NCBI GenBank assembly: GCA_032718475.1
Contig: JAUCBJ010003079.1
Span: forward strand, 4,278-68,277
Direction of reading: 5' to 3'
DNA: 64,000 bases
Source: Nemertoderma westbladi
Lineage: Eukaryota > Animalia > Xenacoelomorpha
The notes beneath the pieces are model-generated. The model was not told the DNA's origin. It saw nothing but the letters and a program-made list of their open reading frames with translations, and did not search any database. The position numbers were made by a program, and so were the translations under genes. Below are positions 1,670 through 35,305 of this stretch, in pieces; the stretch's first letter is position 1, and each line of letters begins with the position of its first letter.

Positions 1670-1884
1670 CTCTTTATCAGCGGTGAGGTCATCGAGCAGA
1701 TCAACATCGCTTATGCAGATCGGTTGCTTATCAGGAGCAGCAGAGCCACCCAATATCAACGGAATATTATCCGTTATGTCGTCAATTTCTTCGTTAAACT
1801 AGAAAAAATATAGATACATTGGATTGTGTTAATAAACAATGCTTGCAGGTTTGCAAAAAGTAACTCTTGCAAACCTCTTACCAT
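1670..1884 (-). other. Putative exon cassette copy 1: ATG (1884-1882), 83-nt GT-AG intron (1881-1799), 129-nt exon (1798-1670); spliced peptide M-FNEEIDDITDNIPLILGGSAAPDKQPICISDVDLLDDLTADKE
   Basis: Minus strand ACCATG|GTAAGA donor; TATTAAC branch-like motif; TATTTTTTCTAG| acceptor; GAG|GTAAAT donor. Exon length is a multiple of 3 and only frame 0 is open (the other two frames hit TAA). Confidence 0.7.
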
Positions 1885-4430
1885 GGTAGTTTCACACACA
1901 AAATGTCACAGCTAAAACTAACTGTGTAGGGACACTAACAAAATTTTCCGAATATTATGACAGCCACAATCAATTGTAGTAATTTTGTGACAGCCACAAA
2001 CAATTGTCTGAATGTTGTGACAGCCACAAACATTTGTCGCAATGTTGGGACTGCCACAAACAATTGTCCGAATGTTGTGACAGCCACAAACAATTGTCGC
2101 AATGTTGTAACAGCCACAAACAATTGTCGTAATGTTGTGACAGCCACAAACAATTGTCCGAATGTTGTGACAGCCACAAACAATTGTCGTAATGTTGTGA
2201 CAGCCACAAACAATTGTAGTAATGTTGTGACAGCCACAAGCAATTGTCGCAATATTGTGACAGCCACAAACAATTGTCGCAATATTATGACAGCTACAAA
2301 TAATTGTCGTAATGTTGTGACAGTCACAAACAATTGCCAGAATGTTATGACAGCCACAAACAATAGTCGTAGTTTTGTGATACGCACAAACAATGGAGAA
2401 ATTCTTTATCAGCCACGAACAACTGCTGTGTTGCAGTATGCCGTGCAACCGGGACAGCTACAAACAATTTTCGTAATGTTGAGACAGCCACAAACAATTG
2501 TCGCAATGTTGTGACAGCTACAAACAATTTTCGTAATGTTGAGACAGCCACAAACAATTGTCGCAATGTTGTGACAGCTACAAACAATTTTCGTAATGTT
2601 TTGAAAGCCACAAACAATTGTCGTAATGTTGTGACAGCCACAAACAATTGTCGTAATGTTGTGACAGCCACAAACAATTGTCGTAATATTGTGACAGCTA
2701 CAAACAATTGTCGTAATGTTGTGACAGCAATAAACAATTGTCTCAATATTGTGACAGCCACAAACAATTGTCGCAATATTGTGACAGCCACAAAAAATTG
2801 TCGTAATGTTGTGACAGTCACGAACAATTGTCGCAATATTGTGACAGCCACAAACAATTGTAGGAATATTGTAACAGCTACAAAAATTGTCGTAATGTTG
2901 GGACTGCCACAAACAATTGTCCGAATGTTGTGACAGCCACAAACAATTGTCGCAATGTTGTAACAGCCACAAACAATTGTCGTAATGTTGTGACAGCCAC
3001 AAACAATTGTCCGAATGTTGTGACAGCCACAAACAATTGTCGTAATGTTGTGACAGCCACAAACAATGGTAGTAATGTTGTGACAGCCACAAGCAATTGT
3101 CGCAATATTGTGACAGCCACAAACAATTGTCGCAATATTATGACAGCCACAAATAATTGTCGCAATGTTGTGACAGCTACAAACAATTTTCGTAATGTTG
3201 AGACAGCCACAAACAATTGTCGCAATGTTGTGACAGCTACAAACAATTTTCGTAATGTTTTGAAAGCCACAAACAATTGTCGTAATGTTGTGACAGCCAC
3301 ATACAATTGTCGTAATGTTATGACAGCCACAAACAATTGTCTCAATATTGTGACAGCCACAAACAATTGTCGCAATATTGTGACAGCCACAAAAAATTGT
3401 CGTAATGTTGTGACAGTCACAAACAATTGTCGCAATATTGTGACAGCCACAAACAATTGTAGCAATATTGTGACAACCACAAACAATTGTCGTAATGTTG
3501 TGACGGCCACAAACAATTGTCCGAATGTTGTGACAGCCACAAACAATTGTCGTAATGTTGCGACAGTCGCAAACAATTGTCGTAATATTGTGACAGCCAC
3601 AAAAAATTGTCGTAACGTTGTGACGGCCACAAACAATTGTCCGAATGTTGTGACAGCCACAAACAATTGTCGTAATGTTGCGACAGCCACAAACAATTGT
3701 CGCAATATTCTGACAGCCACAATCAATTGTCACAATGTTGTGACAGCCACAAACAATTGTCGCAATGTTGTGACAACCACAAACAATTGTAGCAATATTG
3801 TGACAGCCTCAAACAATTGACGCAATGTAATGACAGCCACAAAGAATTGTCGTAATATTGTGACAGCTACAAACAATTGTCGTAATATTGTGACAGCCAC
3901 AATCAATTGTCACAATGTTGTGACAGCCACAAACAATTGTCGTAATGTTGCGACAGCCACAAACAATTGTCGTAATATTGTGACAGCTACAAACAATTGT
4001 CGTAATATTGTGACAGCTACAAACAATTGTCGTAATATTGTGACAGCCACAAAAATTGCAGGAATGTTGTAACAGCCACAAACAATTGCCGTAATATTGT
4101 GACAGCTACAAACAATTGTCGTAATATTGTGACAGCTACAATCAATTGTCGTAATATTGTGACAGCCAGAATCAATTGTCACAATGTTGTGACAGCCACA
4201 AACAATTGTCGTAATGTTGCGACAGCCACAAACAATTGTCGTAATATTGTGACAGCTACAAACAATTGTCGTAATATTGTGACAGATACAAACAATTGTC
4301 GTAATATTGTGACAGCCACAAAAATTGCAGGAATGTTGTAACAGCCACAAACAATTGCCGTAATATTAGAATTAATCTTCAAATAAACTTTTAAATTTAT
4401 CATCAAAATAATATAAGTGTGTAAATTTAC

Positions 4431-4645
4431 CTCTTTATCAGCGGTGAGGTCATCGAGCAGATCAACATCGCTTATGCAGATCGGTTGCTTATCAGGAGCA
4501 GCAGAGCCTCCCAATATCAACGGAATATTATCCGTTATGTCGTCAATTTCTTCGTTAAACTAGAAAAAATATAGATACATTGGATTGTGTTAATAAACAA
4601 TGCTTGCAGGTTTGCAAAAAGTAACTCTTGCAAACCTCTTACCAT
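4431..4645 (-). other. Putative exon cassette copy 2 (exon 4559-4431); same peptide as copy 1
   Basis: Same splice signals; synonymous GGT>GGA change. Confidence 0.7.
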
Positions 4646-5829
4646 GGTAGTTTCACACACAAAATCTCACAGCTAAAACTAACTGTGTTGGGACACTAAC
4701 AAAATTTTCCGAATATTGTGACAGCCACAATCAATTGTAGTAATTTTGTGACAGCCACAAACAATTGTCTGAATGTTGTGACAGCCACAAACATTTGTCG
4801 CAATGTTGGGACTGCCACAAACAATTGTCCGAATGTTGTGACAGCCACAAACAATTGTCGCAATGTTGTAACAGCCACAAACAATTGTCGTAATGTTGTG
4901 ACAGCCACAATCAATTGTAGTAATTTTGTGACAGCCACAAACAATTGTCTGAATGTTGTGACAGCCACAAACATTTGTCGCAATGTTGGGACTGCCACAA
5001 ACAATTGTCCGAATGTTGTGACAGCCACAAACAATTGTCGCAATGTTGTAACAGCCACAAACAATTGTCGTAATGTTGTGACAGTCACAAACAATAGTCG
5101 CAATATTGTGACAGCCACAAACAATTGTAGCAATATTGTGACAACCACAAACAATTGTCGTAATGTTGTGACAGCCACAAACAATTGTCCGAATGTTGTG
5201 ACAGCCACAAACAATTGTCGTAATGTTGCGACAGTCACAAACAATTGTCGTAATATTGTGACAGCCACGAAAAATTGTCGTAATGTTGTGACGGCCACAA
5301 ACAATTGTCCGAATGTTGTGACAGCCACAAATAATTGTCGTAATGTTGCGACAGCCACAAACAATTGTCACAATATTCTGACAGCCACAATCAATTGTCA
5401 CAATGTTGTGACAGCCACAAACAATTGTCGCAATGTTGTGACAACCACAAACAATTGTAGCAATATTGTGACAACCTCAAACAATTGACGCAATGTAATG
5501 ACAGCCACAAAGAATTGTCGTAATATTGTGACAGCTACAAACAATTGTCGTAATATTGTGACAGCCACAAACAATTGTCCGAATGTTGTGACAGCCACAA
5601 ACAATTGTCGTAATGTTGCGACAGCCACATACAATTGTCGTAATATTGTGACAGCTACAAACAATTGTCGTAATATTGTGACAGATACAAACAATTGTCG
5701 TAATATTGTGACAGCCACAAAAATTGCAGGAATGTTGTAACAGCCACAAACAATTGCCGTAATATTAGAATTAATCTTCAAATAAACTTTTAAATTTATC
5801 ATCAAAATAATATAAGTGTGTAAATTTAC

Positions 5830-6044
5830 CTCTTTATCAGCGGTGAGGTCATCGAGCAGATCAACATCGCTTATGCAGATCGGTTGCTTATCAGGAGCAG
5901 CAGAGCCACCCAATATCAACGGAATATTATCCGTTATGTCGTCAATTTCTTCGTTAAACTAGAAAAAATATAGATACATTGGATTGTGTTAATAAACAAT
6001 GCTTGCAGGTTTGCAAAAAGTAACTCTTGCAAACCTCTTACCAT
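5830..6044 (-). other. Putative exon cassette copy 3 (exon 5958-5830); same peptide as copy 1
   Basis: Same splice signals and open 129-nt exon. Confidence 0.7.
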
Positions 6045-9000
6045 GGTAGTTTCACACACAAAATCTCACAGCTAAAACTAACTGTGTTGGGACACTAACA
6101 AAATTTTCCGAATATTGTGACAGCCACAATCAATTGTAGTAATTTTGTGACAGCCACAAACAATTGTCTGAATGTTGTGACAGCCACAAACATTTGTCGC
6201 AATGTTGGGACTGCCACAAACAATTGTCCGAATGTTGTGACAGCCACAAACAATTGTCGCAATGTTGTAACAGCCACAAACAATTGTCGTAATGTTGTGA
6301 CAGCCACAAACAATTGTCCGAATGTTGTGACAGCCACAAACAATTGTCGTAATGTTGTGACAGCCACAAACAATTGTAGTAATGTTGTGACAGCCACAAG
6401 CAATTGTCGCAATATTGTGACAGCCACAAACAATTGTCGCAATATTATGACAGATACAAATAATTGTCGTAATGTTGTGACAGTCACAAACAATTGCCAG
6501 AATGTTATGACAGCCACAAACAATAGTCGTAGTTTTGTGATACGCACAAACAATGGAGAAATTCTTTATCAGCCACGAACAACTGCTGTGTTGCAGTATG
6601 CCGTGCAACCGGGACAGCTACAAACAATTTTCGTAATGTTGAGACAGCCACACACAATTGTCGCAATGTTGTGACAGCTACAAACAATTTTCGTAATGTT
6701 GAGACAGCCACAAACAATTGTCGCAATGTTGTGACAGCTACAAACAATTTTCGTAATGTTTTGAAAGCCACAAACAATTGTCGTAATGTTGTGACAGCCA
6801 CAAACAATTGTCGTAATGTTGTGACAGCCACAAACAATTGTCGTAATATTGTGACAGCTACAAACAATTGTCGTAATGTTGTGACAGCAATAAACAATTG
6901 TCTCAATATTGTGACAGCCACAAACAATTGTCGCAATATTGTGACAGCCACAAAAAATTGTCGTAATGTTGTGACAGTCACGAACAATTGTCGCAATATT
7001 GTGACAGCCACAAACAATTGTAGGAATATTGTAACAGCTACAAAAATTGTCGTAATGTTGGGACTGCCACAAACAATTGTCCGAATGTTGTGACAGCCAC
7101 AAACAATTGTCGCAATGTTGTAACAGCCACAAACAATTGTCGTAATGTTGTGACAGCCACAAACAATTGTCCGAATGTTGTGACAGCCACAAACAATTGT
7201 CGTAATGTTGTGACAGCCAAACAATGGTAGTAATGTTGTGACAGCCACAAGCAATTGTCGCAATATTGTGACAGCCACAAACAATTGTCGCAATATTATG
7301 ACAGCCACAAATAATTGTCGCAATGTTGTGACAGCTACAAACAATTTTCGTAATGTTGAGACAGCCACAAACAATTGTCGCAATGTTGTGACAGCTACAA
7401 ACAATTTTCGTAATGTTGAGACAGCCACAAACAATTGTCGCAATGTTGTGACAGCTACAAACAATTTTCGTAATGTTTTGAAAGCCACAAACAATTGTCG
7501 TAATGTTGTGACAGCCACAAACAATTGTCGTAATGTTGTGACAGCCACAAACAATTGTCGTAATATTGTGACAGCTACAAACAATTGTCGTAATGTTGTG
7601 ACAGCAATAAACAATTGTCTCAATATTGTGACAGCCACAAACAATTGTCGCAATATTGTGACAGCCACAAAAAATTGTCGTAATGTTGTGACAGTCACGA
7701 ACAATTGTCGCAATATTGTGACAGCCACAAACAATTGTAGGAATATTGTAACAGCTACAAAAATTGTCGTAATGTTGGGACTGCCACAAACAATTGTCCG
7801 AATGTTGTGACAGCCACAAACAATTGTCGCAATGTTGTAACAGCCACAAACAATTGTCGTAATGTTGTGACAGCCACAAACAATTGTCCGAATGTTGTGA
7901 CAGCCACAAACAATTGTCGTAATGTTGTGACAGCCACAAACAATGGTAGTAATGTTGTGACAGCCACAAGCAATTGTCGCAATATTGTGACAGCCACAAA
8001 CAATTGTCGCAATATTATGACAGCCACAAATAATTGTCGCAATGTTGTGACAGCTACAAACAATTTTCGTAATGTTGAGACAGCCACAAACAATTGTCGC
8101 AATGTTGTAACAGCCACAAACAATTGTCGTAATGTTGTGACAGCCACAAACAATTGTCCGAATGTTGTGACAGCCACAAACAATTGTCGTAATGTTGTGA
8201 CAGCCACAAACAATTGTAGTAATGTTGTGACAGCCACAAGCAATTGTCGCAATATTGTGACAGCCACAAACAATTGTCGCAATATTATGACAGATACAAA
8301 TAATTGTCGTAATGTTGTGACAGTCACAAACAATTGCCAGAATGTTATGACAGCCACAAACAATAGTCGTAGTTTTGTGATACGCACAAACAATGGAGAA
8401 ATTCTTTATCAGCCACGAACAACTGCTGTGTTGCAGTATGCCGTGCAACCGGGACAGCTACAAACAATTTTCGTAATGTTGAGACAGCCACACACAATTG
8501 TCGCAATGTTGTGACAGCTACAAACAATTTTCGTAATGTTGAGACAGCCACAAACAATTGTCGCAATGTTGTGACAGCTACAAACAATTTTCGTAATGTT
8601 TTGAAAGCCACAAACAATTGTCGTAATGTTGTGACAGCCACAAACAATTGTCGTAATGTTGTGACAGCCACAAACAATTGTCGTAATATTGTGACAGCTA
8701 CAAACAATTGTCGTAATGTTGTGACAGCAATAAACAATTGTCTCAATATTGTGACAGCCACAAACAATTGTCGCAATATTGTGACAGCCACAAAAAATTG
8801 TCGTAATGTTGTGACAGTCACGAACAATTGTCGCAATATTGTGACAGCCACAAACAATTGTAGGAATATTGTAACAGCTACAAAAATTGTCGTAATGTTG
8901 GGACTGCCACAAACAATTGTCCGAATGTTGTGACAGCCACAAACAATTGTCGCAATGTTGTAACAGCCACAAACAATTGTCGTAATGTTGTGACAGCCAC

Positions 9001-11147
9001 AAACAATTGTCCGAATGTTGTGACAGCCACAAACAATTGTCGTAATGTTGTGACAGCCAAACAATGGTAGTAATGTTGTGACAGCCACAAGCAATTGTCG
9101 CAATATTGTGACAGCCACAAACAATTGTCGCAATATTATGACAGCCACAAATAATTGTCGCAATGTTGTGACAGCTACAAACAATTTTCGTAATGTTGAG
9201 ACAGCCACAAACAATTGTCGCAATGTTGTGACAGCTACAAACAATTTTCGTAATGTTGAGACAGCCACAAACAATTGTCGCAATGTTGTGACAGCTACAA
9301 ACAATTTTCGTAATGTTTTGAAAGCCACAAACAATTGTCGTAATGTTGTGACAGCCACAAACAATTGTCGTAATGTTGTGACAGCCACAAACAATTGTCG
9401 TAATATTGTGACAGCTACAAACAATTGTCGTAATGTTGTGACAGCAATAAACAATTGTCTCAATATTGTGACAGCCACAAACAATTGTCGCAATATTGTG
9501 ACAGCCACAAAAAATTGTCGTAATGTTGTGACAGTCACGAACAATTGTCGCAATATTGTGACAGCCACAAACAATTGTAGGAATATTGTAACAGCTACAA
9601 AAATTGTCGTAATGTTGGGACTGCCACAAACAATTGTCCGAATGTTGTGACAGCCACAAACAATTGTCGCAATGTTGTAACAGCCACAAACAATTGTCGT
9701 AATGTTGTGACAGCCACAAACAATTGTCCGAATGTTGTGACAGCCACAAACAATTGTCGTAATGTTGTGACAGCCACAAACAATGGTAGTAATGTTGTGA
9801 CAGCCACAAGCAATTGTCGCAATATTGTGACAGCCACAAACAATTGTCGCAATATTATGACAGCCACAAATAATTGTCGCAATGTTGTGACAGCTACAAA
9901 CAATTTTCGTAATGTTGAGACAGCCACAAACAATTGTCGCAATGTTGTGACAGCTACAAACAATTTTCGTAATGTTTTGAAAGCCACAAACAATTGTCGT
10001 AATGTTGTGACAGCCACAAACAATTGTCGTAATGTTATGACAGCCACAAACAATTGTCTCAATATTGTGACAGCCACAAACAATTGTCGCAATATTGTGA
10101 CAGCCACAAAAAATTGTCGTAATGTTGTGACAGTCACAAACAATTGTCGCAATATTGTGACAGCCACAAACAATTGTAGCAATATTGTGACAACCACAAA
10201 CAATTGTCGTAATGTTGTGACGGCCACAAACAATTGTCCGAATGTTGTGACAGCCACAAACAATTGTCGTAATGTTGCGACAGTCGCAAACAATTGTCGT
10301 AATATTGTGACAGCCACAAAAAATTGTCGTAACGTTGTGACGGCCACAAACAATTGTCCGAATGTTGTGACAGCCACAAACAATTGTCGTAATGTTGCGA
10401 CAGCCACAAACAATTGTCGCAATATTCTGACAGCCACAATCAATTGTCACAATGTTGTGACAGCCACAAACAATTGTCGCAATGTTGTGACAACCACAAA
10501 CAATTGTAGCAATATTGTGACAGCCTCAAACAATTGACGCAATGTAATGACAGCCACAAAGAATTGTCGTAATATTGTGACAGCTACAAACAATTGTCGT
10601 AATATTGTGACAGCCACAATCAATTGTCACAATGTTGTGACAGCCACAAACAATTGTCGTAATGTTGCGACAGCCACAAACAATTGTCGTAATATTGTGA
10701 CAGCTACAAACAATTGTCGTAATATTGTGACAGCTACAAACAATTGTCGTAATATTGTGACAGCCACAAAAATTGCAGGAATGTTGTAACAGCCACAAAC
10801 AATTGCCGTAATATTGTGACAGCTACAAACAATTGTCGTAATATTGTGACATCTACAAACAATTGTCGTAATATTGTGACAGCCACAATCAATTGTCACA
10901 ATGTTGTGACAGCCACAAACAATTGTCGTAATGTTGCGACAGCCACAAACAATTGTCGTAATATTGTGACAGCTACAAACAATTGTCGTAATATTGTGAC
11001 AGATACAAACAATTGTCGTAATATTGTGACAGCCACAAAAATTGCAGGAATGTTGTAACAGCCACAAACAATTGCCGTAATATTAGAATTAATCTTCAAA
11101 TAAACTTTTAAATTTATCATCAAAATAATATAAGTGTGTAAATTTAC

Positions 11148-11362
11148 CTCTTTATCAGCGGTGAGGTCATCGAGCAGATCAACATCGCTTATGCAGATCG
11201 GTTGCTTATCAGGAGCAGCAGAGCCTCCCAATATCAACGGAATATTATCCGTTATGTCGTCAATTTCTTCGTTAAACTAGAAAAAATATAGATACATTGG
11301 ATTGTGTTAATAAACAATGCTTGCAGGTTTGCAAAAAGTAACTCTTGCAAACCTCTTACCAT
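11148..11362 (-). other. Putative exon cassette copy 4 (exon 11276-11148); same peptide as copy 1
   Basis: Same splice signals; GGA variant. Confidence 0.7.
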
Positions 11363-13833
11363 GGTAGTTTCACACACAAAATCTCACAGCTAAAACTAAC
11401 TGTGTTGGGACACTAACAAAATTTTCCGAATATTGTGACAGCCACAATCAATTGTAGTAATTTTGTGACAGCCACAAACAATTGTCTGAATGTTGTGACA
11501 GCCACAAACATTTGTCGCAATGTTGGGACTGCCACAAACAATTGTCCGAATGTTGTGACAGCCACAAACAATTGTCGCAATGTTGTAACAGCCACAAACA
11601 ATTGTCGTAATGTTGTGACAGCCACAAACAATTGTCCGAATGTTGTGACAGCCACAAACAATTGTCGTAATGTTGTGACAGCCACAAACAATTGTAGTAA
11701 TGTTGTGACAGCCACAAGCAATTGTCGCAATATTGTGACAGCCACAAACAATTGTCGCAATATTATGACAGCTACAAATAATTGTCGTAATGTTGTGACA
11801 GTCACAAACAATTGCCAGAATGTTATGACAGCCACAAACAATAGTCGTAGTTTTGTGATACGCACAAACAATGGAGAAATTCTGTATCAGCCACGAACAA
11901 CTGCTGTGTTGCAGTATGCCGTGCAACCGGGACAGCTACAAACAATTATCGTAATGTTGAGACAGCCACAAACAATTGTCGCAATGTTGTGACAGCTACA
12001 AACAATTTTCGTAATGTTGAGACAGCCACAAACAATTGTCGCAATGTTGTGACAGCTACAAACAATTTTCGTAATGTTTTGAAAGCCACAAACAATTGTC
12101 GTAATGTTGTGACAGCCACAAACAATTGTCGTAATGTTGTGACAGCCACAAACAATTGTCGTAATATTGTGACAGCTACAAACAATTGTCGTAATGTTGT
12201 GACAGCAATAAACAATTGTCTCAATATTGTGACAGCCACAAACAATTGTCGCAATATTGTGACAGCCACAAAAAATTGTCGTAATGTTGTGACAGTCACG
12301 AACAATTGTCGCAATATTGTGACAGCCACAAACAATTGTAGGAATATTGTAACAGCTACAAAAATTGTCGTAATGTTGTGACAGTCACAAAAAATTTCAG
12401 AATGTTGTAACAGTTGCAAACAAATGCCGGAATGTTGTGACAGCCACAAACAAATGTTGTAGTTTTGTGATACGCACAAACAATGGAGGAATTCTACATC
12501 AGCCACAAAGAACTGCAGTGTAGCAGTCTGCCGTGCAACCGGGACAGCTACAAACAATTGTCGGAATGTTGATACAGCCACAAACAATTGTCGCAGTATT
12601 GTGACAGCTACAAACAATTGTCGTAATGTTGTGACAGCCGCGTACAATTGCCGGAATGTTGTGACAGCCACAAAAAAATTGTCGAAATGTTGTTACAGCC
12701 ACAACAAATTGTCGCAATATTGTGACAGCCACAAACAATTATCGCTAGGTTGTGACAGCCACAAACAATTGTCGTAATGTTGTGACAGCCACAAACAATT
12801 GTCGTAATATTGTGACAGCCGCAAACAATGGTCGAAATGTTGTGATAGCCACAACAAATTGTCGCAATGTTGTGACAGCCACAAACAATTGTCGCAAGGT
12901 TGTGACAGCCACAAACAATTATCGCAAGGTTGTGACAGCCACAAACAATTGTCGTAATGTTGTGACAGCCACAAACAATTGTCGTAATATTGTGACAGCC
13001 GCAAACAATTGTCAGAATATTGTGACAGCAGAAAACAATTTTCGTAACGTTGTGACAGCCACACACAATTGTCGTAATATTGTAACAGCCGCAAACAATT
13101 GTCGGAATGTTGTGACAGCCACAAACAATTGTCGTAATGGTGTGACAGCCACAAATAATAGTCGTATTGTTGTGATAGCTACAAACAATTTCCGGAATGT
13201 TGTGACAGCCGCAAACAATTGCCGGATTGTTGTGACAGCCGCAAACAATTGTCGGAATATTGTGACAGCAGAAAACAATTTTCGTAACGTTGTGACAGCC
13301 ACACACAATTGTCGTAATATTGTAACAGCCGCAAACAATTGTCGGAATGTTGTGACAGCCACAAACAATTGTCCTAATGTTGCGACAGCCACAAACAATT
13401 GTCGTAATATTGTGACAGCCACAAAAAATTTTCGGAATATTGTGACAGCCACAAACAATTGTCGCAATGTTGTGACAACCACAAACAATTGTAGCAATAT
13501 TGTGACAGCCACAAACAATTGACGCAATGTAATGACAGCCACAAAGAATTGTCGTAATATTGTGACAGCTACAAACAATTGTCGTAATATTGTGACAGCC
13601 ACAATCAATTGTCACAATGTTGTGACAGCCACAAACAATTGTCGTAATATTGTGACAGCTACAAACAATTGTCGTAATATTGTGACTGCCACAATCAATT
13701 GTCACAATATTGTGACAGCCACAAAAATTGCAGGAATGTTGTAACAGCCACAAACAATTGCCGTAATATTAGAATTAATCTTCAAATAAACTTTTAAATT
13801 TATCATCAAAATAATATAAGTGTGTAAATTTAC

Positions 13834-14047
13834 CTCTATATCAGCGGTGAGGTCATCGAGCAGATCAAGATTGCCTATGCAGATCGGTTGCTTATCAGAG
13901 CAGAAGAGCCACCCAATATCAACGGAATATTATCCGTTATGTCGTCAATTTCTTCGTTAAACTAGAAAAAATATAGATACATTGGATTGTGTTAATAAAC
14001 AATGCTTGCAGGTTTGCAAAAAGTAACTCTTGCAAACCTCTTACCAT
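13834..14047 (-). pseudogene. Exon cassette copy 5, 128-nt frameshifted exon (13961-13834)
   Basis: Matches copy 7 except TCAGAGCAG versus TCAGGAGCAG near 13897 (1-nt deletion); could be a consensus error. Confidence 0.5.
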
Positions 14048-21356: not shown

Positions 21357-21571
21357 CTCTATATCAGCGGTGAGGTCATCGAGCAGATCAAGATTGCCTA
21401 TGCAGATCGGTTGCTTATCAGGAGCAGAAGAGCCACCCAATATCAACGGAATATTATCCGTTATGTCGTCAATTTCTTCGTTAAACTAGAAAAAATATAG
21501 ATACATTGGATTGTGTTAATAAACAATGCTTGCAGGTTTGCAAAAAGTAACTCTTGCAAACCTCTTACCAT
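21357..21571 (-). other. Putative exon cassette copy 7 (exon 21485-21357); variant ...GGSSAPDKQPICIGNLDLLDDLTADIE
   Basis: Splice signals intact, 129 nt, open frame. Confidence 0.68.
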
Positions 21572-23183: not shown

Positions 23184-23399
23184 CTCCTTATCAGCGGTGG
23201 GTTCATCGAGCTGATCAAGATCGCTTGTGCAGATCAGTTGCTTATCAGGAGCAGCAGAGCCACCCAATATCAACGGAATATTATCCGTTATGTCGTCAAT
23301 TTCTTCGTTAAACTAGAAAAAAATATAGATACATTGGATTGTGTTAATAAACAATGCTTGCAGGTTTGCAAAAAGTAACTCATGCAAACCTCTTACCAT
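23184..23399 (-). other. Putative exon cassette copy 8 (exon 23312-23184); variant ...GGSAAPDKQLICTSDLDQLDEPTADKE
   Basis: Splice signals intact; intron 84 nt (one extra T in the pyrimidine tract). Confidence 0.68.
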
Positions 23400-25406: not shown

Positions 25407-25621
25407 CTCCTTATCAGCGGTGGGTTCATCGAACAGATCAAGATTGCTTATGCAGATCGGTTGCTTATCAGGAGCAGAAGAGCCACCCAATATCAACGGA
25501 ATGTTATCCGTTATGTCGTCAATTTCTTCGTTAAACTAGAAAAAATATAGATACATTGGATTGTGTTAATAAACAATGCTTGCAGGTTTGCAAAAAGTAA
25601 CTCTTGCAAACCTCTTACCAT
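25407..25621 (-). other. Putative exon cassette copy 9 (exon 25535-25407); variant ...GGSSAPDKQPICISNLDLFDEPTADKE
   Basis: Splice signals intact; synonymous AAT>AAC change. Confidence 0.68.
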
Positions 25622-27233
25622 GGTAGTTTCACACACAAAATCTTACAGCTAAAACTAACTGTGTTGGGACACTAACAAAATTTTCCGAATATTGGACAGC
25701 CACAATCAATTGTAGTAATTTTGTAACAGCCACAAACAATTGTCTGAATGTTGTGACAGCCACAAACATTTGTCGCAATGTTGGGACTGCCACAAACAAT
25801 TGTCCGAATGTTGTGACAGCCACAAACAATTGTCGCAATGTTGTAACAGTCACAAACAATTGACGTAATGTTGTGACAGCCACAAACAATTGTCCGAATG
25901 TTGTGACAGCCACAAACAATTGTCGTAATGTTGTGACAGCCAAAAACAATTGTCGCAATATTATGACAACCACAAAAAATATCGTAATGTTGTGACAGTC
26001 ACAAACAATTGTCGCAAGGTTGTGACAGCCACAAACAATTGTCGTAATGTTGTGACAGCCACAAACAATCGTCCGAATGTTGTGACAGCCACAAACATTT
26101 GTCGCAATGTTGTGACAGCCACAAACAATTGTCGCAATGTTGTAACAGTCACAAACAATTGTCGTAATGTTGTGACAGCCACAAACAATTGTCCGAATGT
26201 TGTGACAGCCACAAACAATTGTCGTAATGTTGTGACAGCCAAAAACAATTGTCGCAATATTATGACAGCCACAAAAAATATCGTAATGTCGTGACAGTCA
26301 CAAACAATTGTCGCAAGGTTGTGACAGCCACAAACAATTGTCGTAATGTTGTGACAGCCACAAACAATTGTCGCAATGTTGTTACAGCCACAAACTATTG
26401 TCGTAATGTTGTGACAGCAACAAACAATTGTCGTAATGTTGTGACAGCTACAAACAATTGTCGCAATATTGTGACAGCCACAAACAATTGTACGAATGTT
26501 GTGACAGCTACAAACAATTGTCGTAATGTTGTGAGAACTACAAACAATTTTCGTAATGTTGTGATAGCTACAAACAATTTCCGGAATGTTGTGACAGCTA
26601 CAAACAATTTTCGTAATGTTGTGATAGCTACAAACAATTTTCGTAATGTTGTGATAGCTACAAACAATTGTCGTAATGTTGTGACAGCCACAAACAATTG
26701 TCGCAATGTTGTTACAGCCACAAACAATTGTCGTAATGTTGTGACAGCAACAAACAATTGTCGTAATGTTGTTACAGCTACAAACAATTGTCGCAATGTT
26801 GTGACAGCCACAAACAATTGTAGTAATTTTGTGACAGCCACAAACAATAGTAGTAATTTTGTGACAGCCACAAACAATTATTGTCGTAATGTTGTGAAAG
26901 CAAAAAACAATTATCGCAATCTTGTGACAGCTACAAACAATTGTAGTAATGTTGTGACAGCCACAAACAATTATTGTCGTAATGTTGTGACAGCCACAAA
27001 CAATTATTGTCGTAATGTTGTGACAGACACAAACAATTATTGTCGTAATGTTGTGACATTCACAAACAATTATTGTCGTAATGTTGTGACAGCCACAAAC
27101 TAATACCAAAATGTTGTGGCAGCTGCTAACAATTGCAATAATTTTGTGACTGACATACACAAACAATGCCACAATTAATCATCAACTAAATATTTAAATT
27201 TATCATCAAAATAATATAAGTGTGTAAATTTAC

Positions 27234-27448
27234 CTCCTTATCAGCGGTGGGTTCATCGAACAGATCAAGATTGCTTATGCAGATCGGTTGCTTATCAGGA
27301 GCAGAAGAGCCACCCAATATCAACGGAATATTATCCGTTATGTCGTCAATTTCTTCGTTAAACTAGAAAAAATATAGATACATTGGATTGTGTTAATAAA
27401 CAATGCTTGCAGGTTTGTAAAAAGTAACTCTTGCAAACCTCTTACCAT
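27234..27448 (-). other. Putative exon cassette copy 10 (exon 27362-27234); same peptide as copy 9
   Basis: Splice signals intact, open frame. Confidence 0.68.
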
Positions 27449-29060
27449 GGTAGTTTCACACACAAAATCTTACAGCTAAAACTAACTGTGTTGGGACACT
27501 AACAAAATTTTACGAATATTGGACAGCCACAATCAATTGTAGTAATTTTGTAACAGCCACAAACAATTGTCTGAATGTTGTGACAGCCACAAACATTTGT
27601 CGCAATGTTGGGACTGCCACAAACAATTGTCCGAATGTTGTGACAGCCACAAACAATTGTCGCAATGTTGTAACAGTCACAAACAATTGACGTAATGTTG
27701 TGACAGCCACAAACAATTGTCCGAATGTTGTGACAGCCACAAACAATTGTCGTAATGTTGTGACAGCCAAAAACAATTGTCGCAATATTATGACAACCAC
27801 AAAAAATATCGTAATGTTGTGACAGTCACAAACAATTGTCGCAAGGTTGTGACAGCCACAAACAATTGTCGTAATGTTGTGACAGCCACAAACAATCGTC
27901 CGAATGTTGTGACAGCCACAAACATTTGTCGCAATGTTGTGACAGCCACAAACAATTGTCGCAATGTTGTAACAGTCACAAACAATTGTCGTAATGTTGT
28001 GACAGCCACAAACAATTGTCCGAATGTTGTGACAGCCACAAACAATTGTCGTAATGTTGTGACAGCCAAAAACAATTGTCGCAATATTATGACAGCCACA
28101 AAAAATATCGTAATGTCGTGACAGTCACAAACAATTGTCGCAAGGTTGTGACAGCCACAAACAATTGTCGTAATGTTGTGACAGCCACAAACAATTATCG
28201 CAATGTTGTTACAGCCACAAACAATTGTCGTAATGTTGTGACAGCAACAAACAATTGTCGTAATGTTGTGACAGCTACAAACAATTGTCGCAATATTGTG
28301 ACAGCCACAAACAATTGTACGAATGTTGTGACAGCTACAAACAATTGTCGTAATGTTGTGACAACTACAAACAATTTTCGTAATGTTGTGATAGCTACCA
28401 ACAATTTCCGGAATGTTGTGACAGCTACAAACAATTTTCGTAATGTTGTGATAGCTACAAACAATTTTCGTAATGTTGTGATAGCTACAAACAATTGTCG
28501 TAATGTTGTGACAGCCACAAACAATTGTCGCAATGTTGTTACAGCCACAAACAATTGTCGTAATGTTGTGACAGCAACAAACAATTGTCGTAATGTTGTT
28601 ACAGCTACAAACAATTGTCGCAATGTTGTGACAGCCACAAACAATTGTAGTAATTTTGTGACAGCCACAAACAATAGTAGTAATTTTGTGACAGCCACAA
28701 ACAATTATTGTCGTAATGTTGTGAAAGCAAAAAACAATTATCGCAATCTTGTGACAGCTACAAACAATTGTAGTAATGTTGTGACAGCCACAAACAATTA
28801 TTGTCGTAATGTTGTGACAGCCACAAACAATTATTGTCGTAATGTTGTGACAGACACAAACAATTATTGTCGTAATGTTGTGACATTCACAAACAATTAT
28901 TGTCGTAATGTTGTGACAGCCACAAACTAATACCAAAATGTTGTGGCAGCTGCTAACAATTGCAATAATTTTGTGACTGACATACACAAACAATGCCACA
29001 ATTAATCATCAACTAAATATTTAAATTTATCATCAAAATAATATAAGTATGTAAATTTAC

Positions 29061-29275
29061 CTCCTTATCAGCGGTGGGTTCATCGAGCAGATCAAGATCG
29101 CTTGTGCAGATCAGTTGCTTATCAGGAGCAGCAGAGCCAACCAATATCAACGGAATATTAACCGTTATGTCGTCAATTTCTTCGTTAAACTAGAAAAAAT
29201 ATAGATACATTGGATTGTGTTAATAAACAATGCTTGCAGGTTTGCAAAAAGTAACTCATGCAAACCTCTTACCAT
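29061..29275 (-). other. Putative exon cassette copy 11 (exon 29189-29061); FNEEIDDITVNIPLILVGSAAPDKQLICTSDLDLLDEPTADKE
   Basis: Splice signals intact, open frame. Confidence 0.68.
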
Positions 29276-31103
29276 GGTAGTTTCACACACAAAATCTTAC
29301 AGCTAAAACTAACTGTGTTGGGACAGTCACAAACAACTTCGGAATATTGTGACAGCCACAATCAATTGTAGTAATTTTGTAACAGCCACAAACAATTGTC
29401 TGAATGTTGTGACAGCCACAAACATTTGTCGCAATGTTGGGACTGCCACAAACAATTGTCCGAATGTTGTGACAGCCACAAACAATTGTCGCAATGTTGT
29501 AACAGTCACAAACAATTGTCGTAATGTTGTGACAGCCACAAACAATTGTCCGAATTTTGTGACAGCCACAAACAATTGTCGTAATGTTGTAACAGCCAAA
29601 AACAATTGTCGCAATATTGTGACAGCCACAAACAATTGTCGCAATATTATGACAGCCACAAAAAATATCGTAATGTTGTGACAGTCACAAACAATTGTCG
29701 CAAGGTTGTGACAGCCACAAACAATTGTCGTAATGTTGTGAAAGCCACAAACAATTGTCGCAATGTTGTTACAGCCACAAACAATTGTCGTAATGTTGTG
29801 ACAGCAACAAACAATTGTCGTAATGTTGTGACAGCTACAAACAATTGCCGCAATGTTGTGACAGCCACAAACAATTGTCCGAATGTTGTGACAGCCACAA
29901 ACAATTGTCGAAATGTTGTAACAGTCACAAACAATTGTCGTAATGTTGTGACAGCCACAAACAATTGTCCGAATGTTGTGACAGCCACAAACAATTGTCG
30001 TAATGTTGTGACAGCCAAAAACAATTGTCGCAATATTGTGACAGCCACAAACAATTGTCGCAATATTATGACAGCCACAAAAAATATCGTAATGTTGTGA
30101 CAGTCACAAACAATTGTCGCAAGGTTGTGATAGCCACAAACAATTGTCGTAATGTTGTGACAGCAACAAACAATTGTCGCAATGTTGTTACAGCTACAAA
30201 CAATTGTCGTAATGGTGTGACAGCAACAAACAATTGTCGAAATGTTGTGACAGCTACAAACAATTGTCGCAATGTTGTGACAGCCACAAACAATTGTCGT
30301 AATGTTGTGACAGCCACAAACAATTGTACGAATGTTGCGACAGCTACAAACAATTGTCGTAATGTTGTGACAGCCTCAAACAATCGATCGTACAAATGTT
30401 GTGACAGCAACAAACAATTGTATGAATGTTGTGACAGCTACAAACAATTGTCGTAATGTAGTGACAACTACAAACAATTGTCGCAATGTTGTGACAGCCA
30501 CAAACAATTGTAGTAATTTTGTGACAGCCACAAACAATTGTAGTAATTTTGTGACAGCCACAAACAATTATTGTCGTAATGTTGTGAAAGCAAAAAACAA
30601 TTATCGCAATCTTGTGACAGCTACAAACAATTGTAGTAATCTTGTGACAGCCACAAACAATTGTCGTAATGTAGTGACAACTACAAACAATTGTCGCAAT
30701 GTTGTGACAGCCACAAACAATTGTAGTAATTTTGTGACAGCCACAAACAATTGTAGTAATTTTGTGACAGCCACAAACAATTATTGTCGTAATGTTGTGA
30801 AAGCAAAAAACAATTATCGCAATCTTGTGACAGCTACAAACAATTGTAGAAATGTTGTGACAGCCACAAACAATTATTGTCGTAATGTTGTGACAGCCAC
30901 AAATAATTATTGTCGTAATGTTGTGACAGTCACAAACAATTATTGTCGTAATGTTGTGACAGCCACAAACTAATACCAAAATGTTGTGGCAGCTGCTAAC
31001 AATTGCAATAATTTTGTGACTGACATACACAAACAATGCCACAATTAATCATCAACTAAATATTTAAATTTATCATCAAAATAATATAAGTGTGTAAATT
31101 TAC

Positions 31104-31318
31104 CTCCTTATCAGCGGTGGGTTCATCGAGCAGATCAAGATCGCTTGTGCAGATCGGTTGCTTATCAGGAGCAGCAGAGCCTCCCAATATCAACGGAATA
31201 TTATCCGTTATGTCGTCACTTTCTTCGTTAAACTAGAAAAAATATAGATACATTGGATTGTGTTAATAAACAATGCTTGCAGGTTTGCAAAAATTAACTC
31301 TTGCAAACCTCTTACCAT
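31104..31318 (-). other. Putative exon cassette copy 12 (exon 31232-31104); FNEESDDITDNIPLILGGSAAPDKQPICTSDLDLLDEPTADKE
   Basis: Splice signals intact, open frame. Confidence 0.68.
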
Positions 31319-33384
31319 GGTAGTTTAACACACAAAATCTTACAGCTAAAACTAACTGTGTTGGGACAGTCACAAACAACTTCGGAATATTGTGACAGCC
31401 ACAATCAATTGTAGTAATTTTGTAACAGCCACAAACAATTGTCTGAATGTTGTGACAGCCACAAACATTTGTCGCAATGTTGGGACTGCCACAAACAATT
31501 GTCCGAATGTTGTGACAGCCACAAACAATTGTCGCAATGTTGTGACAGCCACAAACAATTGTCGTAATGTTGTGACAGCCAAAAACAATTGTCCGAATGT
31601 TGTGACAGCCACAAACAATTGTCGTAATGTTGTGACAGCCAAAAACAATTGTCGCAATATTGTGACAGCCACAAACAATTGTCGCAATATTATGACATCC
31701 ACAAAAAATATCGTAATGTTGTGACAGTCACAAACAATTGTCGCAAGGTTGTGACAGCCACAAACAATTGTCGTAATGTTGTGACAGCCACAAACAATTG
31801 TCGCAATGTTGTTACAGCCACAAACAATTGTCGTAATGTTGTGACAGCAACAAACAATTGTCGTAATATTGTGACAGCTACAAACAATGTCGCAATGTTG
31901 TGACAGCCACAAACAATTGTCTGTCCGAATGTTGTGACAGCCACAAACAATTGTCACAATGTTGTAACAGTCACAAACAATTGTCGCAATGTTGTAACAG
32001 TCACAAACAATTGTCGTAATGTTGTGACAGCCACAAACAATTGTCCGAATGTTGTGACAGCCACAAACAATTGTCGTAATGTTGTGACAGCCAAAAACAA
32101 TTGTCGCAATATTATGACAGCCACAAAAAATATCGTAATGTTGTGACAGTCACAAACAATTGTCGCAAGGTTGTGACAGCCACAAACAATTGTCGTAATG
32201 TTGTGACAGCCACAAACAATCGTCCGAATGTTGTGACAGCCACAAACATTTGTCGCAATGTTGTGACAGCCACAAACAATTGTCGCAATGTTGTAACAGT
32301 CACAAACAATTGTCGTAATGTTGTGACAGCCACAAACAATTGTCCGAATGTTGTGACAGCCACAAACAATTGTCGTAATGTTGTGACAGCCAAAAACAAT
32401 TGTCGCAATATTATGACAGCCACAAAAAATATCGTAATGTCGTGACAGTCACAAACAATTGTCGCAAGGTTGTGACAGCCACAAACAATTGTCGTAATGT
32501 TGTGACAGCCACAAACAATTGTCGCAATGTTGTTACAGCCACAAACAATTGTCGTAATGTTGTGACAGCAACAAACAATTGTCGTAATGTTGTGACAGTT
32601 ACAAACAATTGTCGCAATATTGTGACAGCCACAAACAATTGTACGAATGTTGTGACAGCTACAAACAATTGTCGTAATGTTGTGACAACTACAAACAATT
32701 TTCGTAATGTTGTGATAGCTACAAACAATTTCCGGAATGTTGTGACAGCTACAAACAATTTTCGTAATGTTGTGATAGCTACAAACAATTTTCGTAATGT
32801 TGTGATAGCTACAAACAATTGTCGTAATGTTGTGACAGCCACAAACAATTGTCGCAATGTTGTTACAGCCACAAACAATTGTCGTAATGTTGTGATAGCA
32901 ACAAACAATTGTCGTAATGTTGTTACAGCTATAAACAATTGTCGCAATGTTGTGACAGCCACAAACAATTGTAGTAATTTTGTGACAGCCACAAACAATA
33001 GTAGTAATTTTGTGACAGCCACAAACAATTATTGTCGTAATGTTGTGAAAGCAAAAAACAATTATCGCAATCTTGTGACAGCTACAAACAATTGTAGTAA
33101 TGTTGTGACAGCCACAAACAATTATTGTCGTAATGTTGTGACAGCCACAAACAATTATTGTCGTAATGTTGTGACAGACACAAACAATTATTGTCGTAAT
33201 GTTGTGACAGTCACAAACAATTATTGTCGTAATGTTGTGACAGCCACAAACTAATACCAAAATGTTGTGGCAGCTGCTAACAATTGCAATAATTTTGTGA
33301 CTGACATACACAAACAATGCCACAATTAATCATCAACTAAATATTTAAATTTATCATCAAAATAATATAAGTATGTAAATTTAC

Positions 33385-33599
33385 CTCCTTATCAGCGGTG
33401 GGTTCATCGAGCAGATCAAGATCGCTTGTGCAGATCAGTTGCTTATCAGGAGCAGCAGAGCCACCCAATATCAACGGAATATTATCCGTTATGTCGTCAA
33501 TTTCTTCGTTAAACTAGAAAAAATATAGATACATTGGATTGTGTTAATAAACAATGCTTGCAGGTTTGCAAAAATTAACTCTTGCAAACCTCTTACCAT
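33385..33599 (-). other. Putative exon cassette copy 13 (exon 33513-33385); FNEEIDDITDNIPLILGGSAAPDKQLICTSDLDLLDEPTADKE
   Basis: Splice signals intact, open frame. Confidence 0.68.
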
Positions 33600-35153
33600 G
33601 GTAGTTTCACACACAAAATCTTACAGCTAAAACTAACTGTGTTGGGACAGTCACAAACAACTTCGGAATATTGTGACAGCCACAATCAATTGTAGTAATT
33701 TTGTAACAGCCACAAACAATTGTCTGAATGTTGTGACAGCCACAAACATTTGTCGCAATGTTGTAACAGCCACAAACAATTGTCCGAATGTTGTGACAGC
33801 CACAAACAATTGTCGCAATGTTGTGACAGCCACAAACAATTGTCGCAATATTATGACGAGCCACAAAAAATATCGTAATGTTGTGACAGTCACAAACAAT
33901 TGTCGTAATGTTGTGACAGCCACAAACAATTGTCGCAATGTTGTTACAGCCACAAACAATTGTCGTAATGTTGTGACAGCATCAAACAATTGTCGTAATG
34001 TTGTGACAGCTACAAACAATTGTCCGAATGTTGTGACAGCCACAAACAATTGTCGTAATGTTGTGAAAGCCACAAACAATTGTCGCAATGTTGTTACAGC
34101 CACAAACAATTGTCGTAATATTATGACGAGCCACAAAAAATATCGTAATGTTGTGACAGTCACAAACAATTGTCGTAATGTTGTGACAGCCACAAACAAT
34201 TGTCGCAATGTTGTTACAGCCACAAACAATTGTCGTAATGTTGTGACAGCAACAAACAATTGTCGTAATGTTGTGACAGCTACAAACAATTGTCGCAATG
34301 TTGTGACAGCCACAAACAATTGTACGAATGTTGTGACAGCTACAAACAATTGTCGTAATGTTGTGACAGCTACAAACAATTGTCGTAATATTGTGACAGA
34401 TACAAACAATTGTCGTAATGTTGTGACAGCCACAAACAATCGTACAAATGTTGTGACAGCAACAAACAATTGTATGAATGTTGTGACAGCTACAAACAAT
34501 TGTCGTAATGTAGTGACAACTACAAACAATTGTCGTAATGTTGTGACAGCCACAAACAATTGTAGTAATTTTGTGACAGCCACAAACAATTGTCCGAATG
34601 TTGTGACAGCTACAAACAATTGTCGTAATGTAGTGACAACTACAAACAATTGTCGTAATGTTGTGACAGCCACAAACAATTGTAGTAATTTTGTGACAGC
34701 CACAAACAATTGTCCGAATGTTGTGATAGCTACAAACAATTGTCGTAATGTTGTGACAGCTACAAACAATTGTCGTAATTTTGTGACAGCCACAAACAAT
34801 TGTCGTAATGTTGTGACAGCAACAAACAATTATTGTCGTAATGTTGTGAAAGCAAAAAACAATTATCGCAATCTTGTGACAGCTACAAACAATTGTAGTA
34901 ATGTTGTGACAGCCACAAACAATTATTGTCGTAATGTTGTGACAGCCACAAACAATTATTGTCGTAATGTTGTGACAGTCACAAACAATTATTGGCGTAA
35001 TGTTGTGACATCCACAAACTAATACCAAAATGTTGTGGCAGCTGCTAACTATTGCAATAATTTTGTGACTGACATACACAAACAAATGTCACAATTAATC
35101 ATCAACTAAATATTTAAATTTATCATCAAAATAATATAAGTGTGTAAATTTAC

Positions 35154-35305
35154 CTCCTTATCAGCGGTGAGGTCATCGAGCAGATCAAGATCGCTTGTTC
35201 AAGAACGCAGATCGGTTGCTTATCAGGAGCAGCAGAGCCACCCAATTGAATATTATCCGTTATGTTGTCAATTTCTTCGTTAAACTCTTGCAACCCTCTT
35301 ACCAT
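35154..35305 (-). pseudogene. Degenerate terminal exon cassette copy 14
   Basis: 8-nt insertion (TCAAGAAC) plus a net 6-nt deletion give a 131-nt frameshifted exon; the intron is reduced to 18 nt by a deletion between AACT microhomologies. Confidence 0.7.

What the first reader, a model, noticed from the sequence alone, without database searches (positions are those of the whole stretch)
1670..35305. Hidden 14-copy array of a start-codon plus symmetric-exon cassette embedded in a 30-bp minisatellite
Seen: every unique spacer in the satellite reads on the minus strand as ACCATG|GTAAG, an 83-nt intron with branch-like TATTAAC and TTTTTTCTAG, a 129-nt exon, then GAG|GTAAAT. Only one frame is open, an in-frame stop lies 8 codons upstream of the ATG, and 12 of 14 copies are intact, encoding seven variants of an acidic 43-aa peptide. 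Inference: the first two coding exons of an unidentified gene, whose body would lie left of the window, have been amplified together with the minisatellite. Because the exon is phase 0-0, three models are open: (a) alternative variable N-termini spliced to a common body, as in protocadherin or UGT1 loci, (b) a concatenated 43-aa repeat protein of variable length, (c) a dead passenger fragment in a macrosatellite.
Basis: partly seen in the sequence, partly recalled or inferred. Interest (0 to 1): 0.88.

Follow-up and report, generated by a model that had tools for sequence, protein, structure and literature searches.

The report
Exon copied 14 times by minisatellite
In an invertebrate animal, a small piece that looks like the front end of a gene (a splice donor, a short intron and one 43-codon exon) is repeated at least 14 times inside a 35-kb repeat array, and because the copies change their protein sequence as freely as unselected DNA and lack their own first exon, they are likely passengers of repeat expansion rather than a menu of alternative protein starts.

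Summary
The array is real: 14 cassettes at 1.4-5.3 kb spacing in a 30-bp minisatellite, 12 intact exons, 7 peptides. The exon is coding-derived: its codon score beats 3000 of 3000 shuffles. The extra copies show no sign of selected protein function: 14 nonsynonymous against 3 synonymous alleles (dN/dS about 1.25), and 12 of 14 intact is what drift gives. In copies 1-13 decayed satellite lies directly before the ATG, and the Kozak-like ACC is an inverted copy of the donor, so separate first exons (model a) are unlikely. Copy 14, the only one with unique upstream DNA, has lost its acceptor and frame. Best reading (0.6): one non-homologous duplication starting at a splice donor, then unequal crossing-over, with the copies riding passively. 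A live gene splicing a variable number of acidic modules (0.2) is not excluded: no RNA, parent gene or left flank was available. The scan earlier noted many short splice-junction ('mirage') arrays elsewhere in this genome; no whole-exon array was among the notes shown. Closest known: schistosome SmPoMuc exon-2 arrays and lancelet mirages.

The parts
1..35322 (.). Higher-order array: 30-bp minisatellite blocks (34-162 monomers between cassettes) alternating with a ~310-bp cassette; open at the left window edge
1670..1798 (-). Copy 1 exon, 129 nt, phase 0-0, acidic 43-aa peptide (12 D/E, 2 K, no Met)
1799..1881 (-). Copy 1 intron, 83 nt, GTAAGA...TTTTTTCTAG; 1799-1863 is the part missing in copy 14
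1847..1876 (.). Perfect 10-bp inverted repeat in the intron (1 of 106 background 83-nt windows has one)
1879..1888 (.). 10-bp palindrome centred in the ATG (1884-1882); likely junction of the duplicated unit; same in 13 of 13 copies
1889..1945 (-). Decayed satellite edge directly upstream of the ATG (tested on the copy 4 equivalent, 55 nt, shuffle p = 0.003)
4431..4559 (-). Copy 2 exon, intact (core identical to copies 4 and 6)
5830..5958 (-). Copy 3 exon, intact
11148..11276 (-). Copy 4 exon, intact
13834..13961 (-). Copy 5 exon, 128 nt, 1-nt deletion (frameshift); otherwise identical to copy 7
18955..19083 (-). Copy 6 exon, intact
21357..21485 (-). Copy 7 exon, intact
23184..23312 (-). Copy 8 exon, intact; 84-nt intron
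25407..25535 (-). Copy 9 exon, intact
27234..27362 (-). Copy 10 exon, intact
29061..29189 (-). Copy 11 exon, intact
31104..31232 (-). Copy 12 exon, intact
33385..33513 (-). Copy 13 exon, intact; first intact acceptor downstream of the unique flank
35154..35305 (-). Copy 14 (edge copy): ATG and donor kept; 65-nt deletion removes the acceptor; 6-nt deletion and 8-nt insertion shift the exon frame
35297..35322 (.). Direct-inverted-direct micro-triplication of the donor sequence at the array edge; adds a second donor-like GT at 35320 upstream of the ATG
   Evidence: (0 of 8810 background sites)
35323..36660 (.). Unique AT-rich flank; the only non-satellite DNA upstream of any copy; candidate promoter and 5' UTR (inferred); no coding-like exon found

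Best explanation
The array is 14 or more tandem copies of a coding-derived exon with its upstream donor and short intron, and the extra copies are likely neutral passengers of minisatellite expansion, not a selected set of alternative exons. Shown: one junction type joins decayed satellite to a palindrome at the ATG in all of copies 1-13; only copy 14 has unique upstream DNA; neighbouring copies are most alike and are recombinant mosaics; amino-acid changes accumulate at the neutral rate. Inferred: the original locus was the 5' coding end of a minus-strand gene (donor, 83-nt intron, 129-nt exon, then an intron holding the 30-bp satellite). A single non-homologous, template-switch-type duplication ran from that first donor to just past the far edge of the satellite. 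With satellite now on both sides of the exon, unequal crossing-over multiplied the unit. Copies 1-13 carry only the last few bases of the first exon and so would have no promoter or 5' UTR of their own. Whether the host gene is dead, or survives by using one or a few copies, cannot be told here.
For: Exon origin: 20.7 bits under a codon model from the neighbouring FGD gene; 0 of 3000 best-of-six-frame dinucleotide shuffles reach it (1 of 3000 with either half of FGD as model). Single origin: same palindromic junction in 13 of 13 copies; the 55 nt upstream align to the satellite (p = 0.003) while copy 14's flank does not (p = 0.89). Junction scars: direct-inverted-direct triplication at copy 14, 0 of 8810 background sites. 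Recombination: 31 of 190 informative site pairs fail the four-gamete test; cores differ by 0-17 substitutions; duplications of 1.5-3.6 kb at 99-100% identity; the tree separates left from right copies, though no branch has strong support. No protein constraint: 14 nonsynonymous and 3 synonymous alleles over 101.7 and 27.3 sites; P(14 or more of 17) = 0.001 at omega 0.2 and 0.012 at 0.3. Frameshifts in 2 of 14, one in the only copy next to unique DNA. Read-through of all copies goes out of frame at copy 5. Context, from unreviewed notes only: this genome often seeds tandem arrays at splice junctions.
Against: A 69-nt stretch covering the branch/acceptor half of the intron and the first 13 exon bases has no substitution allele in 13 copies (P = 0.013 for so long a gap among 30 alleles in 315 nt). 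That could be selection on the acceptor, though a homogenised tract gives the same picture. All donors and acceptors of copies 1-13 are intact (weak, as few hits are expected at this divergence). omega = 0.5 is not rejected (P = 0.10), and a disordered acidic linker can be functional at omega near 1 (general knowledge). The counts are alleles, not events, in recombining copies. The exon is more variable than the intron (17/129 against 3/83, Fisher p = 0.028; against all non-exon sites p = 0.08), which diversifying selection could also give. Copy 5's deletion sits in an otherwise perfect duplicate of copy 7 and could be an assembly error. No parent gene, left flank or RNA was seen.
Confidence: 0.6

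Rival explanations
1. Live exon accordion (model b): one promoter right of copy 14 supplies the ATG exon, copy 14's exon is skipped (no acceptor), and several of the symmetric exons 13 to 1 are spliced in series onto a gene body left of the window. The 13 internal ATG-donors would be ignored. The protein would carry a variable number of acidic 43-aa modules, as with SmPoMuc exon 2.
For: Phase 0-0 exons with intact splice sites in 13 of 13; invariant acceptor half of the intron (P = 0.013); copy 14 keeps ATG and donor; precedent in S. mansoni (PMC2576457); lancelet mirages carry extra splice signals without disturbing splicing (PMC3087553).
Against: dN/dS about 1.25; copy 5 breaks the frame for anything downstream if it is included; each acceptor has a strong competing donor 83 nt upstream, and copy 14 has a second donor that would leave the ATG out (score 2.9 against 4.2).
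Confidence: 0.2
2. Alternative N-termini (model a): each copy is a separately promoted two-exon cassette spliced to common downstream exons, as in clustered protocadherins, UGT1 or chelicerate sDscam.
For: ATG, donor, intron, exon, donor in every intact copy, with an upstream in-frame stop; seven peptide variants.
Against: Upstream of the ATG in copies 1-13 is decayed satellite; ACC is the inverted donor; variants are 84-100% identical, three cores are identical, no domain was found and there is no purifying selection. In sDscam the duplicated unit includes the promoter (PMC4835542).
Confidence: 0.07
3. The cassette is a fragment of a transposon gene, or a host fragment moved here by a transposon or by break repair, so that no parent gene exists at this locus.
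For: Inverted and templated pieces at the junction and a hairpin in the intron; no host homologue found.
Against: No second copy in the rest of the window; no Pfam match; both ends of the satellite fade gradually into the cassette flanks, as expected for an intron-born satellite. The lineage is poorly covered (best FGD relative 41% over the full region), so absent homologues mean little. No transposon library could be searched.
Confidence: 0.07
4. Polycistronic micro-ORF mRNA: a weak AG 30 nt upstream of each donor is used, giving alternating 30-nt and 129-nt exons. Each unit would then read start, 43 codons, one codon, stop, and the next start 8 codons on.
For: Both exons would be phase 0-0; the codon 8 before the ATG is a stop in both alleles, TGA and TAA.
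Against: That acceptor scores -4.4 (40% of background AGs score as well or better); the same AG motif occurs 138 times in ordinary monomers; such an mRNA would be a nonsense-mediated decay target (general knowledge); no protein constraint.
Confidence: 0.03
5. Separate question, on the origin of the short intron: copy 14 may be ancestral here, the ATG running in frame through 18 nt into the exon, and the 65 nt in copies 1-13 an insertion with templated inverted sequence that created an intron.
For: The 18 nt are in frame, stop-free, 44% GC like the exon (the other 65 nt are 28%) and 4.9 times likelier under the coding model; the 65 nt are bounded by a 4-nt direct repeat and hold a 10-nt inverted copy of the flank.
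Against: It needs a top-1% donor and a top-2% acceptor with an AG-free zone to arise by chance; copy 14 has other derived indels; a deletion between 4-nt microhomologies at a hairpin is ordinary.
Confidence: 0.1
6. The array is largely an assembly artefact.
For: Blocks up to 3630 bp are 100% identical; three cores are identical.
Against: 12 distinct cores among 14 with ordered, position-related variation; run X1 holds two alleles and two flank types at the junction (low depth, may be the same sample). A few near-identical copies could still be over- or under-counted.
Confidence: 0.03

Closest known systems
Schistosoma mansoni SmPoMuc exon-2 arrays (PMC2576457; passages and section 20 read)
   Same: An early symmetric exon with flanking intron repeated in tandem (about 1 kb units, up to about 20 copies, over 93% identical), units separated by simple repeats.
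   Different: There the 27-bp exon repeats are shown in mRNA and protein. Here the unit is 1.4-5.3 kb, mostly a 30-bp minisatellite, carries an extra ATG-donor and a whole short intron, and expression is unknown.
Lancelet 'mirage' minisatellites: globins BflGb6/BflGb9, Adh3, troponin C, PGBD5 (PMC3087553 abstract and section 16; PMC3902484 passages)
   Same: The tandem unit begins at an exon end plus donor; concerted evolution with a divergent edge copy; extra splice signals present.
   Different: Reported units are 10-160 bp and span a boundary; this unit holds three splice sites, a complete exon and kilobases of a second-level minisatellite. The 30-bp monomer itself does not match the junctions (p = 0.17-0.81).
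Tandem exon duplication of cichlid agrp2 exon 3 (PMC6916709; passages)
   Same: kb-scale tandem exon copies, with copy-number change ascribed to unequal crossing-over; mostly one copy expressed there.
   Different: Terminal exon, about 2-3 copies, no satellite.
Chelicerate sDscam 5' cassettes and clustered protocadherins (PMC4835542; passages); UGT1 (recalled)
   Same: Tandem multi-exon 5' cassettes in front of a presumed common body.
   Different: Those cassettes are each preceded by a promoter and encode Ig or cadherin domains; here satellite abuts the ATG, no domain is found and no constraint is seen.
Gene-bearing macrosatellites such as D4Z4/DUX4 (search listing only; details recalled)
   Same: kb-scale tandem unit with coding sequence.
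   Different: D4Z4 units hold a whole ORF; these hold a fragment without a terminal exon.

Membership tests
Mirage minisatellite | Tandem unit spans an exon-intron boundary of a gene | tested here: met
   The large unit starts a few nt before a top-1% donor and includes an acceptor and a second donor; that the gene is native here is inferred
Mirage minisatellite | Short head-to-tail unit (10-160 bp in PMC3087553) | tested here: not met
   Units are 1399-5318 bp
Mirage minisatellite | The 30-bp monomer itself derives from a splice junction of the cassette | tested here: not met
   Alignment to exon, intron and donor flank no better than shuffles, p = 0.81, 0.39, 0.17; the junction left of the window could not be tested
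Mirage minisatellite | Normal splicing is unaffected | not testable with these tools
   No RNA holder listed
SmPoMuc-type exon VNTR | Symmetric exon plus flanking intron in tandem, separated by simple repeats | tested here: met
SmPoMuc-type exon VNTR | Repeated exons appear in series in mRNA and protein | not testable with these tools
   No usable RNA run
Pcdh/UGT1/sDscam variable 5' cassettes | Each cassette has its own promoter and first exon | tested here: inconclusive
   Sequence upstream of the ATG is satellite-derived in copies 1-13, which argues against; promoter activity itself cannot be tested
Pcdh/UGT1/sDscam variable 5' cassettes | Cassettes encode a recognisable domain kept by purifying selection | tested here: not met
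   No Pfam, PDB or Atlas hit; 14 nonsynonymous to 3 synonymous alleles
Pcdh/UGT1/sDscam variable 5' cassettes | Common constant exons downstream | not testable with these tools
   They would lie left of the window; no genome is held
Gene-bearing macrosatellite (D4Z4-type) | Complete ORF in each unit | tested here: not met
   No convincing terminal exon; the only candidate acceptor is weak and satellite-like
Transposon internal sequence | Similarity to a known element or dispersed copies | tested here: inconclusive
   No Pfam or Rfam match, no copy elsewhere in the window; no transposon library or genome available

The most novel reading that the evidence does not exclude
A live gene whose N-terminus is an accordion run by an intronic minisatellite: recombination in the satellite adds or removes whole symmetric exons, the spliceosome strings the exons together while ignoring 13 perfect ATG-donor decoys 83 nt before each acceptor, and individuals differ in the number of acidic 43-aa modules. 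It would be a whole-exon, two-level form of the splice-junction repeats of this genome and a natural test of exon against intron definition.
Probability: 0.2. Interest if true: 0.65.

Novelty: new variant of a known kind. Interest (0 to 1): 0.3.

Why it matters
As a passenger it is a clear, recent snapshot of how an intronic minisatellite can capture and multiply a whole exon after one junction event, the raw material for exon arrays such as SmPoMuc or mutually exclusive exon clusters; that is of modest interest. If RNA shows the exons joined in series or started separately, it would be a protein whose length or N-terminus is set by satellite recombination. Copy-specific SNPs make exon and donor choice directly readable in either case.

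Tried and rejected
Expression: no RNA holder was listed; one run (X1, kind only guessed, 0.10 of the words) came up. Its contigs cover 1817-1945 (3 contigs, depth 2-3.5) and not the exon. On a control stretch, 41 contigs lay only on 56.4-57.9 kb and none on the 4-kb FGD ORF. It therefore says nothing about expression either way. Parent protein: none at E <= 10 among longer proteins for the minus-strand peptide (25 candidates) or the plus-strand mirror peptide (3 candidates); none at E <= 0.001 among 1.84 billion representatives; no Pfam, PDB or Atlas hit (for copy 14's N-terminal frame). These blanks are weak, as the lineage is barely represented. Related loci: 1 of 69 metagenome candidates passed, a 10-residue match followed at once by a stop in a 53% GC contig, rejected as chance; 0 of 103 in viral contigs. 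Rfam: none. No whole genome is held. Plus-strand terminal-exon reading (good acceptor at 1680, open mirror frame, AATAAA downstream): rejected on codon score, 1.8 against 20.7 bits. Satellite as coding repeat: several frames are open for hundreds of codons, but 29-, 31- and 34-nt monomers break them repeatedly; not pursued. Helitron head-to-tail junction (hairpin plus CTAG; features recalled): the hairpin lies about 45 nt from the CTAG and homology with the unique flank ends at the ATG, not at CTAG; rejected. The bacterial promoter scan is irrelevant to an animal. The megablast part printed nothing and was replaced by a diagonal scan; the TATA/ATG position lists at the end were not used (coordinate error in the ATG list). 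Literature: searches listed no paper on a whole exon nested in a minisatellite higher-order repeat; the library is open-access only. (templated insertions) was seen as a listing only; PMC10565955 passages gave no usable short-intron size.

Full report
Setting. The window is from an invertebrate animal. It holds an FGD5/6-type RhoGEF ORF on the minus strand at 58252-62286 (RhoGEF, PH, FYVE, PH) whose best relatives are about 41% identical over the conserved region, so the lineage is poorly represented in protein collections. One unreviewed scan note calls it a likely acoel; I did not test that. No whole genome is held. Positions 126-35019 are one 30-bp tandem array, and the window starts inside it.

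Observation. BLAST of one cassette finds 14 copies, 13 at 94-100% identity over nearly the full 346 nt and one partial at 35085-35286. Spacing is 1399-5318 bp. On the minus strand all 14 have ATG|GTAAGA and GAG|GTAAAT; 13 have an 83-84-nt intron ending TTTTTTCTAG with no other AG in its last 40 nt. Twelve exons are 129 nt and open and give 7 peptides; copy 5 lacks one base; copy 14 lacks 65 nt of the intron including the acceptor and has a 6-nt deletion and an 8-nt insertion in the exon. With generic splice matrices (recalled), the donors rank in the top 1.1% and 1.4% of 951 background GTs and the acceptor in the top 2.3% of 800 AGs. The whole layout occurs 0 times in 17.6 kb of background and in 30 simulations.

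It is coding-derived. GC rises from 31% in the intron and 16% downstream to 44% in the exon. Under a codon model trained on FGD the minus frame scores 20.7 bits, above the mean of FGD's own windows (13.5, sd 5.9). No background window and 0 of 5000 base shuffles reach it, nor any of 3000 dinucleotide shuffles allowed the best of six frames (1 of 3000 with either half of FGD as model). The two open plus-strand frames score 1.8 and 5.1. No homologue or domain was found, which is weak evidence given the lineage.

Anatomy of the unit. Downstream of the exon, about 70 nt of AT-rich intron fade into the satellite (positions 70-130 past the donor align to it, p < 0.001). Two versions of this join exist: a long decayed edge in copies 8 and 10-14 and a shortened one in copies 1-7 and 9. 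Upstream of the ATG, copies 1-13 all have the same decayed satellite edge (55 nt, p = 0.003; nearest 40 nt, p = 0.04), while copy 14 has unique DNA (p = 0.89). Homology between copy 14 and the others ends at the ATG. There, copies 1-13 have a 10-bp palindrome centred in the ATG (chance 0.003 given the ATG, under background composition). Copy 14 has a direct-inverted-direct triplication of the donor sequence at 35297-35322, a pattern found at 0 of 8810 background sites. So the Kozak-like ACC is an inverted copy of the donor and not independent evidence of initiation. Whether the A of the ATG is native is open. The exon has no Met, an in-frame stop lies 12 codons upstream in copy 14 with no AG between it and the upstream donor, and no other coding-like exon was found in the non-satellite DNA up to FGD apart from LINE-like remnants (best other candidate 16.2 against 28.1; this scan misses short or non-coding exons). 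These points favour a native start codon at the end of a first exon. The palindrome allows that it is a junction by-product.

How it grew. One shared junction implies one founding duplication (inferred: a template-switch or end-joining event; the mechanism is from general knowledge, and one search was seen as a listing only). After that the data show ordinary repeat turnover: monomer strings recur in long blocks; duplications of 1.5-3.6 kb are 99-100% identical; cores differ by 0-17 substitutions, with 11 distinct among copies 1-13; 31 of 190 informative site pairs are incompatible; the tree groups left and right copies, with no strongly supported branch; and the edge copy is the most damaged, as described for lancelet mirage clusters (PMC3087553).

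Selection. Among copies 1-13 the exon has 17 substitution alleles, 14 nonsynonymous and 3 synonymous, over 101.7 and 27.3 sites: dN/dS about 1.25, binomial p = 1.0 against neutrality. omega 0.2 and 0.3 are rejected (P = 0.001 and 0.012), 0.5 is not (P = 0.10). The lack of nonsense changes is expected (P = 0.67). Against pure drift: a 69-nt stretch over the acceptor half of the intron has no substitution allele (P = 0.013), and the exon is more variable than the intron (p = 0.028; p = 0.08 against all non-exon sites). Recombination makes these tests rough, since a homogenised tract would give both signals.

The models. (a) Alternative starts need a promoter per copy. In sDscam the duplicated unit includes it (PMC4835542); here only a few bases of the first exon were copied behind satellite, the peptides are 84-100% identical and unconstrained: 0.07. 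(b) Serial splicing is structurally possible and has a precedent in SmPoMuc (PMC2576457). It must ignore a strong donor 83 nt before every acceptor, choose the ATG donor over the duplicate at 35320, and skip copy 5 or have its deletion be an assembly error (the copy 5 and copy 7 blocks are otherwise identical): 0.2. (c) Passenger copies without selected function, the host being dead or using one or a few, as with agrp2 where mainly one copy is expressed (PMC6916709): 0.6. Minor rivals are a transposon or moved fragment (0.07), a polycistronic micro-ORF mRNA through a weak satellite-edge acceptor (0.03) and assembly artefact (0.03). A separate question is whether the 83-nt intron is itself a recent insertion with copy 14 ancestral (0.1).

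Expression could not be tested: the single run offered covered repeats and not the FGD ORF.

Comparison and novelty. It works like a tandem exon duplication expanded by unequal crossing-over, and it begins at a donor like a mirage repeat, but it fails the short-unit feature of mirages and its 30-bp monomer is not junction-derived. Unreviewed scan notes report many short splice-junction arrays in this genome; the 8 notes shown in each (of 67, 73 and 74 that fit) include no whole-exon array, and no look-alike sequence was indexed. Four literature searches listed no paper on a whole exon nested in a minisatellite higher-order repeat, within an open-access library. Papers seen: PMC3087553 abstract and section 16; PMC2576457 passages and section 20; passages of PMC3902484, PMC6916709, PMC4835542 and PMC10565955; no supplements were opened. 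Verdict: real, a new variant of a known kind, probably neutral; interest 0.3, or about 0.65 if serial splicing is shown.

Noticed in passing
window 58252-62286 (-): FGD5/6-type RhoGEF whose whole DH-PH-FYVE-PH region and long N-terminal part lie in one 1344-codon exon behind an acceptor at 62287; best relative about 41% identical. Possibly a retrogene or lineage-wide intron loss.
   Followed up: partly
window 62567-63225: 22-bp array (30 copies) with 18 perfect donor-like GGTGAGT motifs on the plus strand, antisense to the presumed FGD intron; no plus-strand exon was identified before it.
   Followed up: partly
window 47165-48900 (-): Frameshifted ORF fragments with motifs that I recall as non-LTR retrotransposon endonuclease and reverse transcriptase; no Pfam hit and no relevant PDB hit, so the label is recalled, not confirmed.
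   Followed up: partly
window about 46200-46730 (+) and 56545-57050 (-): Two inverted copies of an interspersed element with an 8-bp microsatellite; covered by run X1 at depth 10-18 on the right-hand copy.
   Followed up: no
window 36674-44622 and 52144-56430: Further long arrays: 37 bp x 215 (95% matches) and 21 bp x 200; more than three quarters of the window is tandem repeat.
   Followed up: no
window 35568-35611 and 36593-36636: 44-bp imperfect direct repeat (84%) in the unique flank right of copy 14.
   Followed up: no
window 35154-35322: Copy 14 has four indels and a micro-triplication within 170 bp but only about five substitutions against copies 12-13; its 8-nt insertion resembles an 8-mer six bases downstream. 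Unexplained clustering of repair-like scars.
   Followed up: partly
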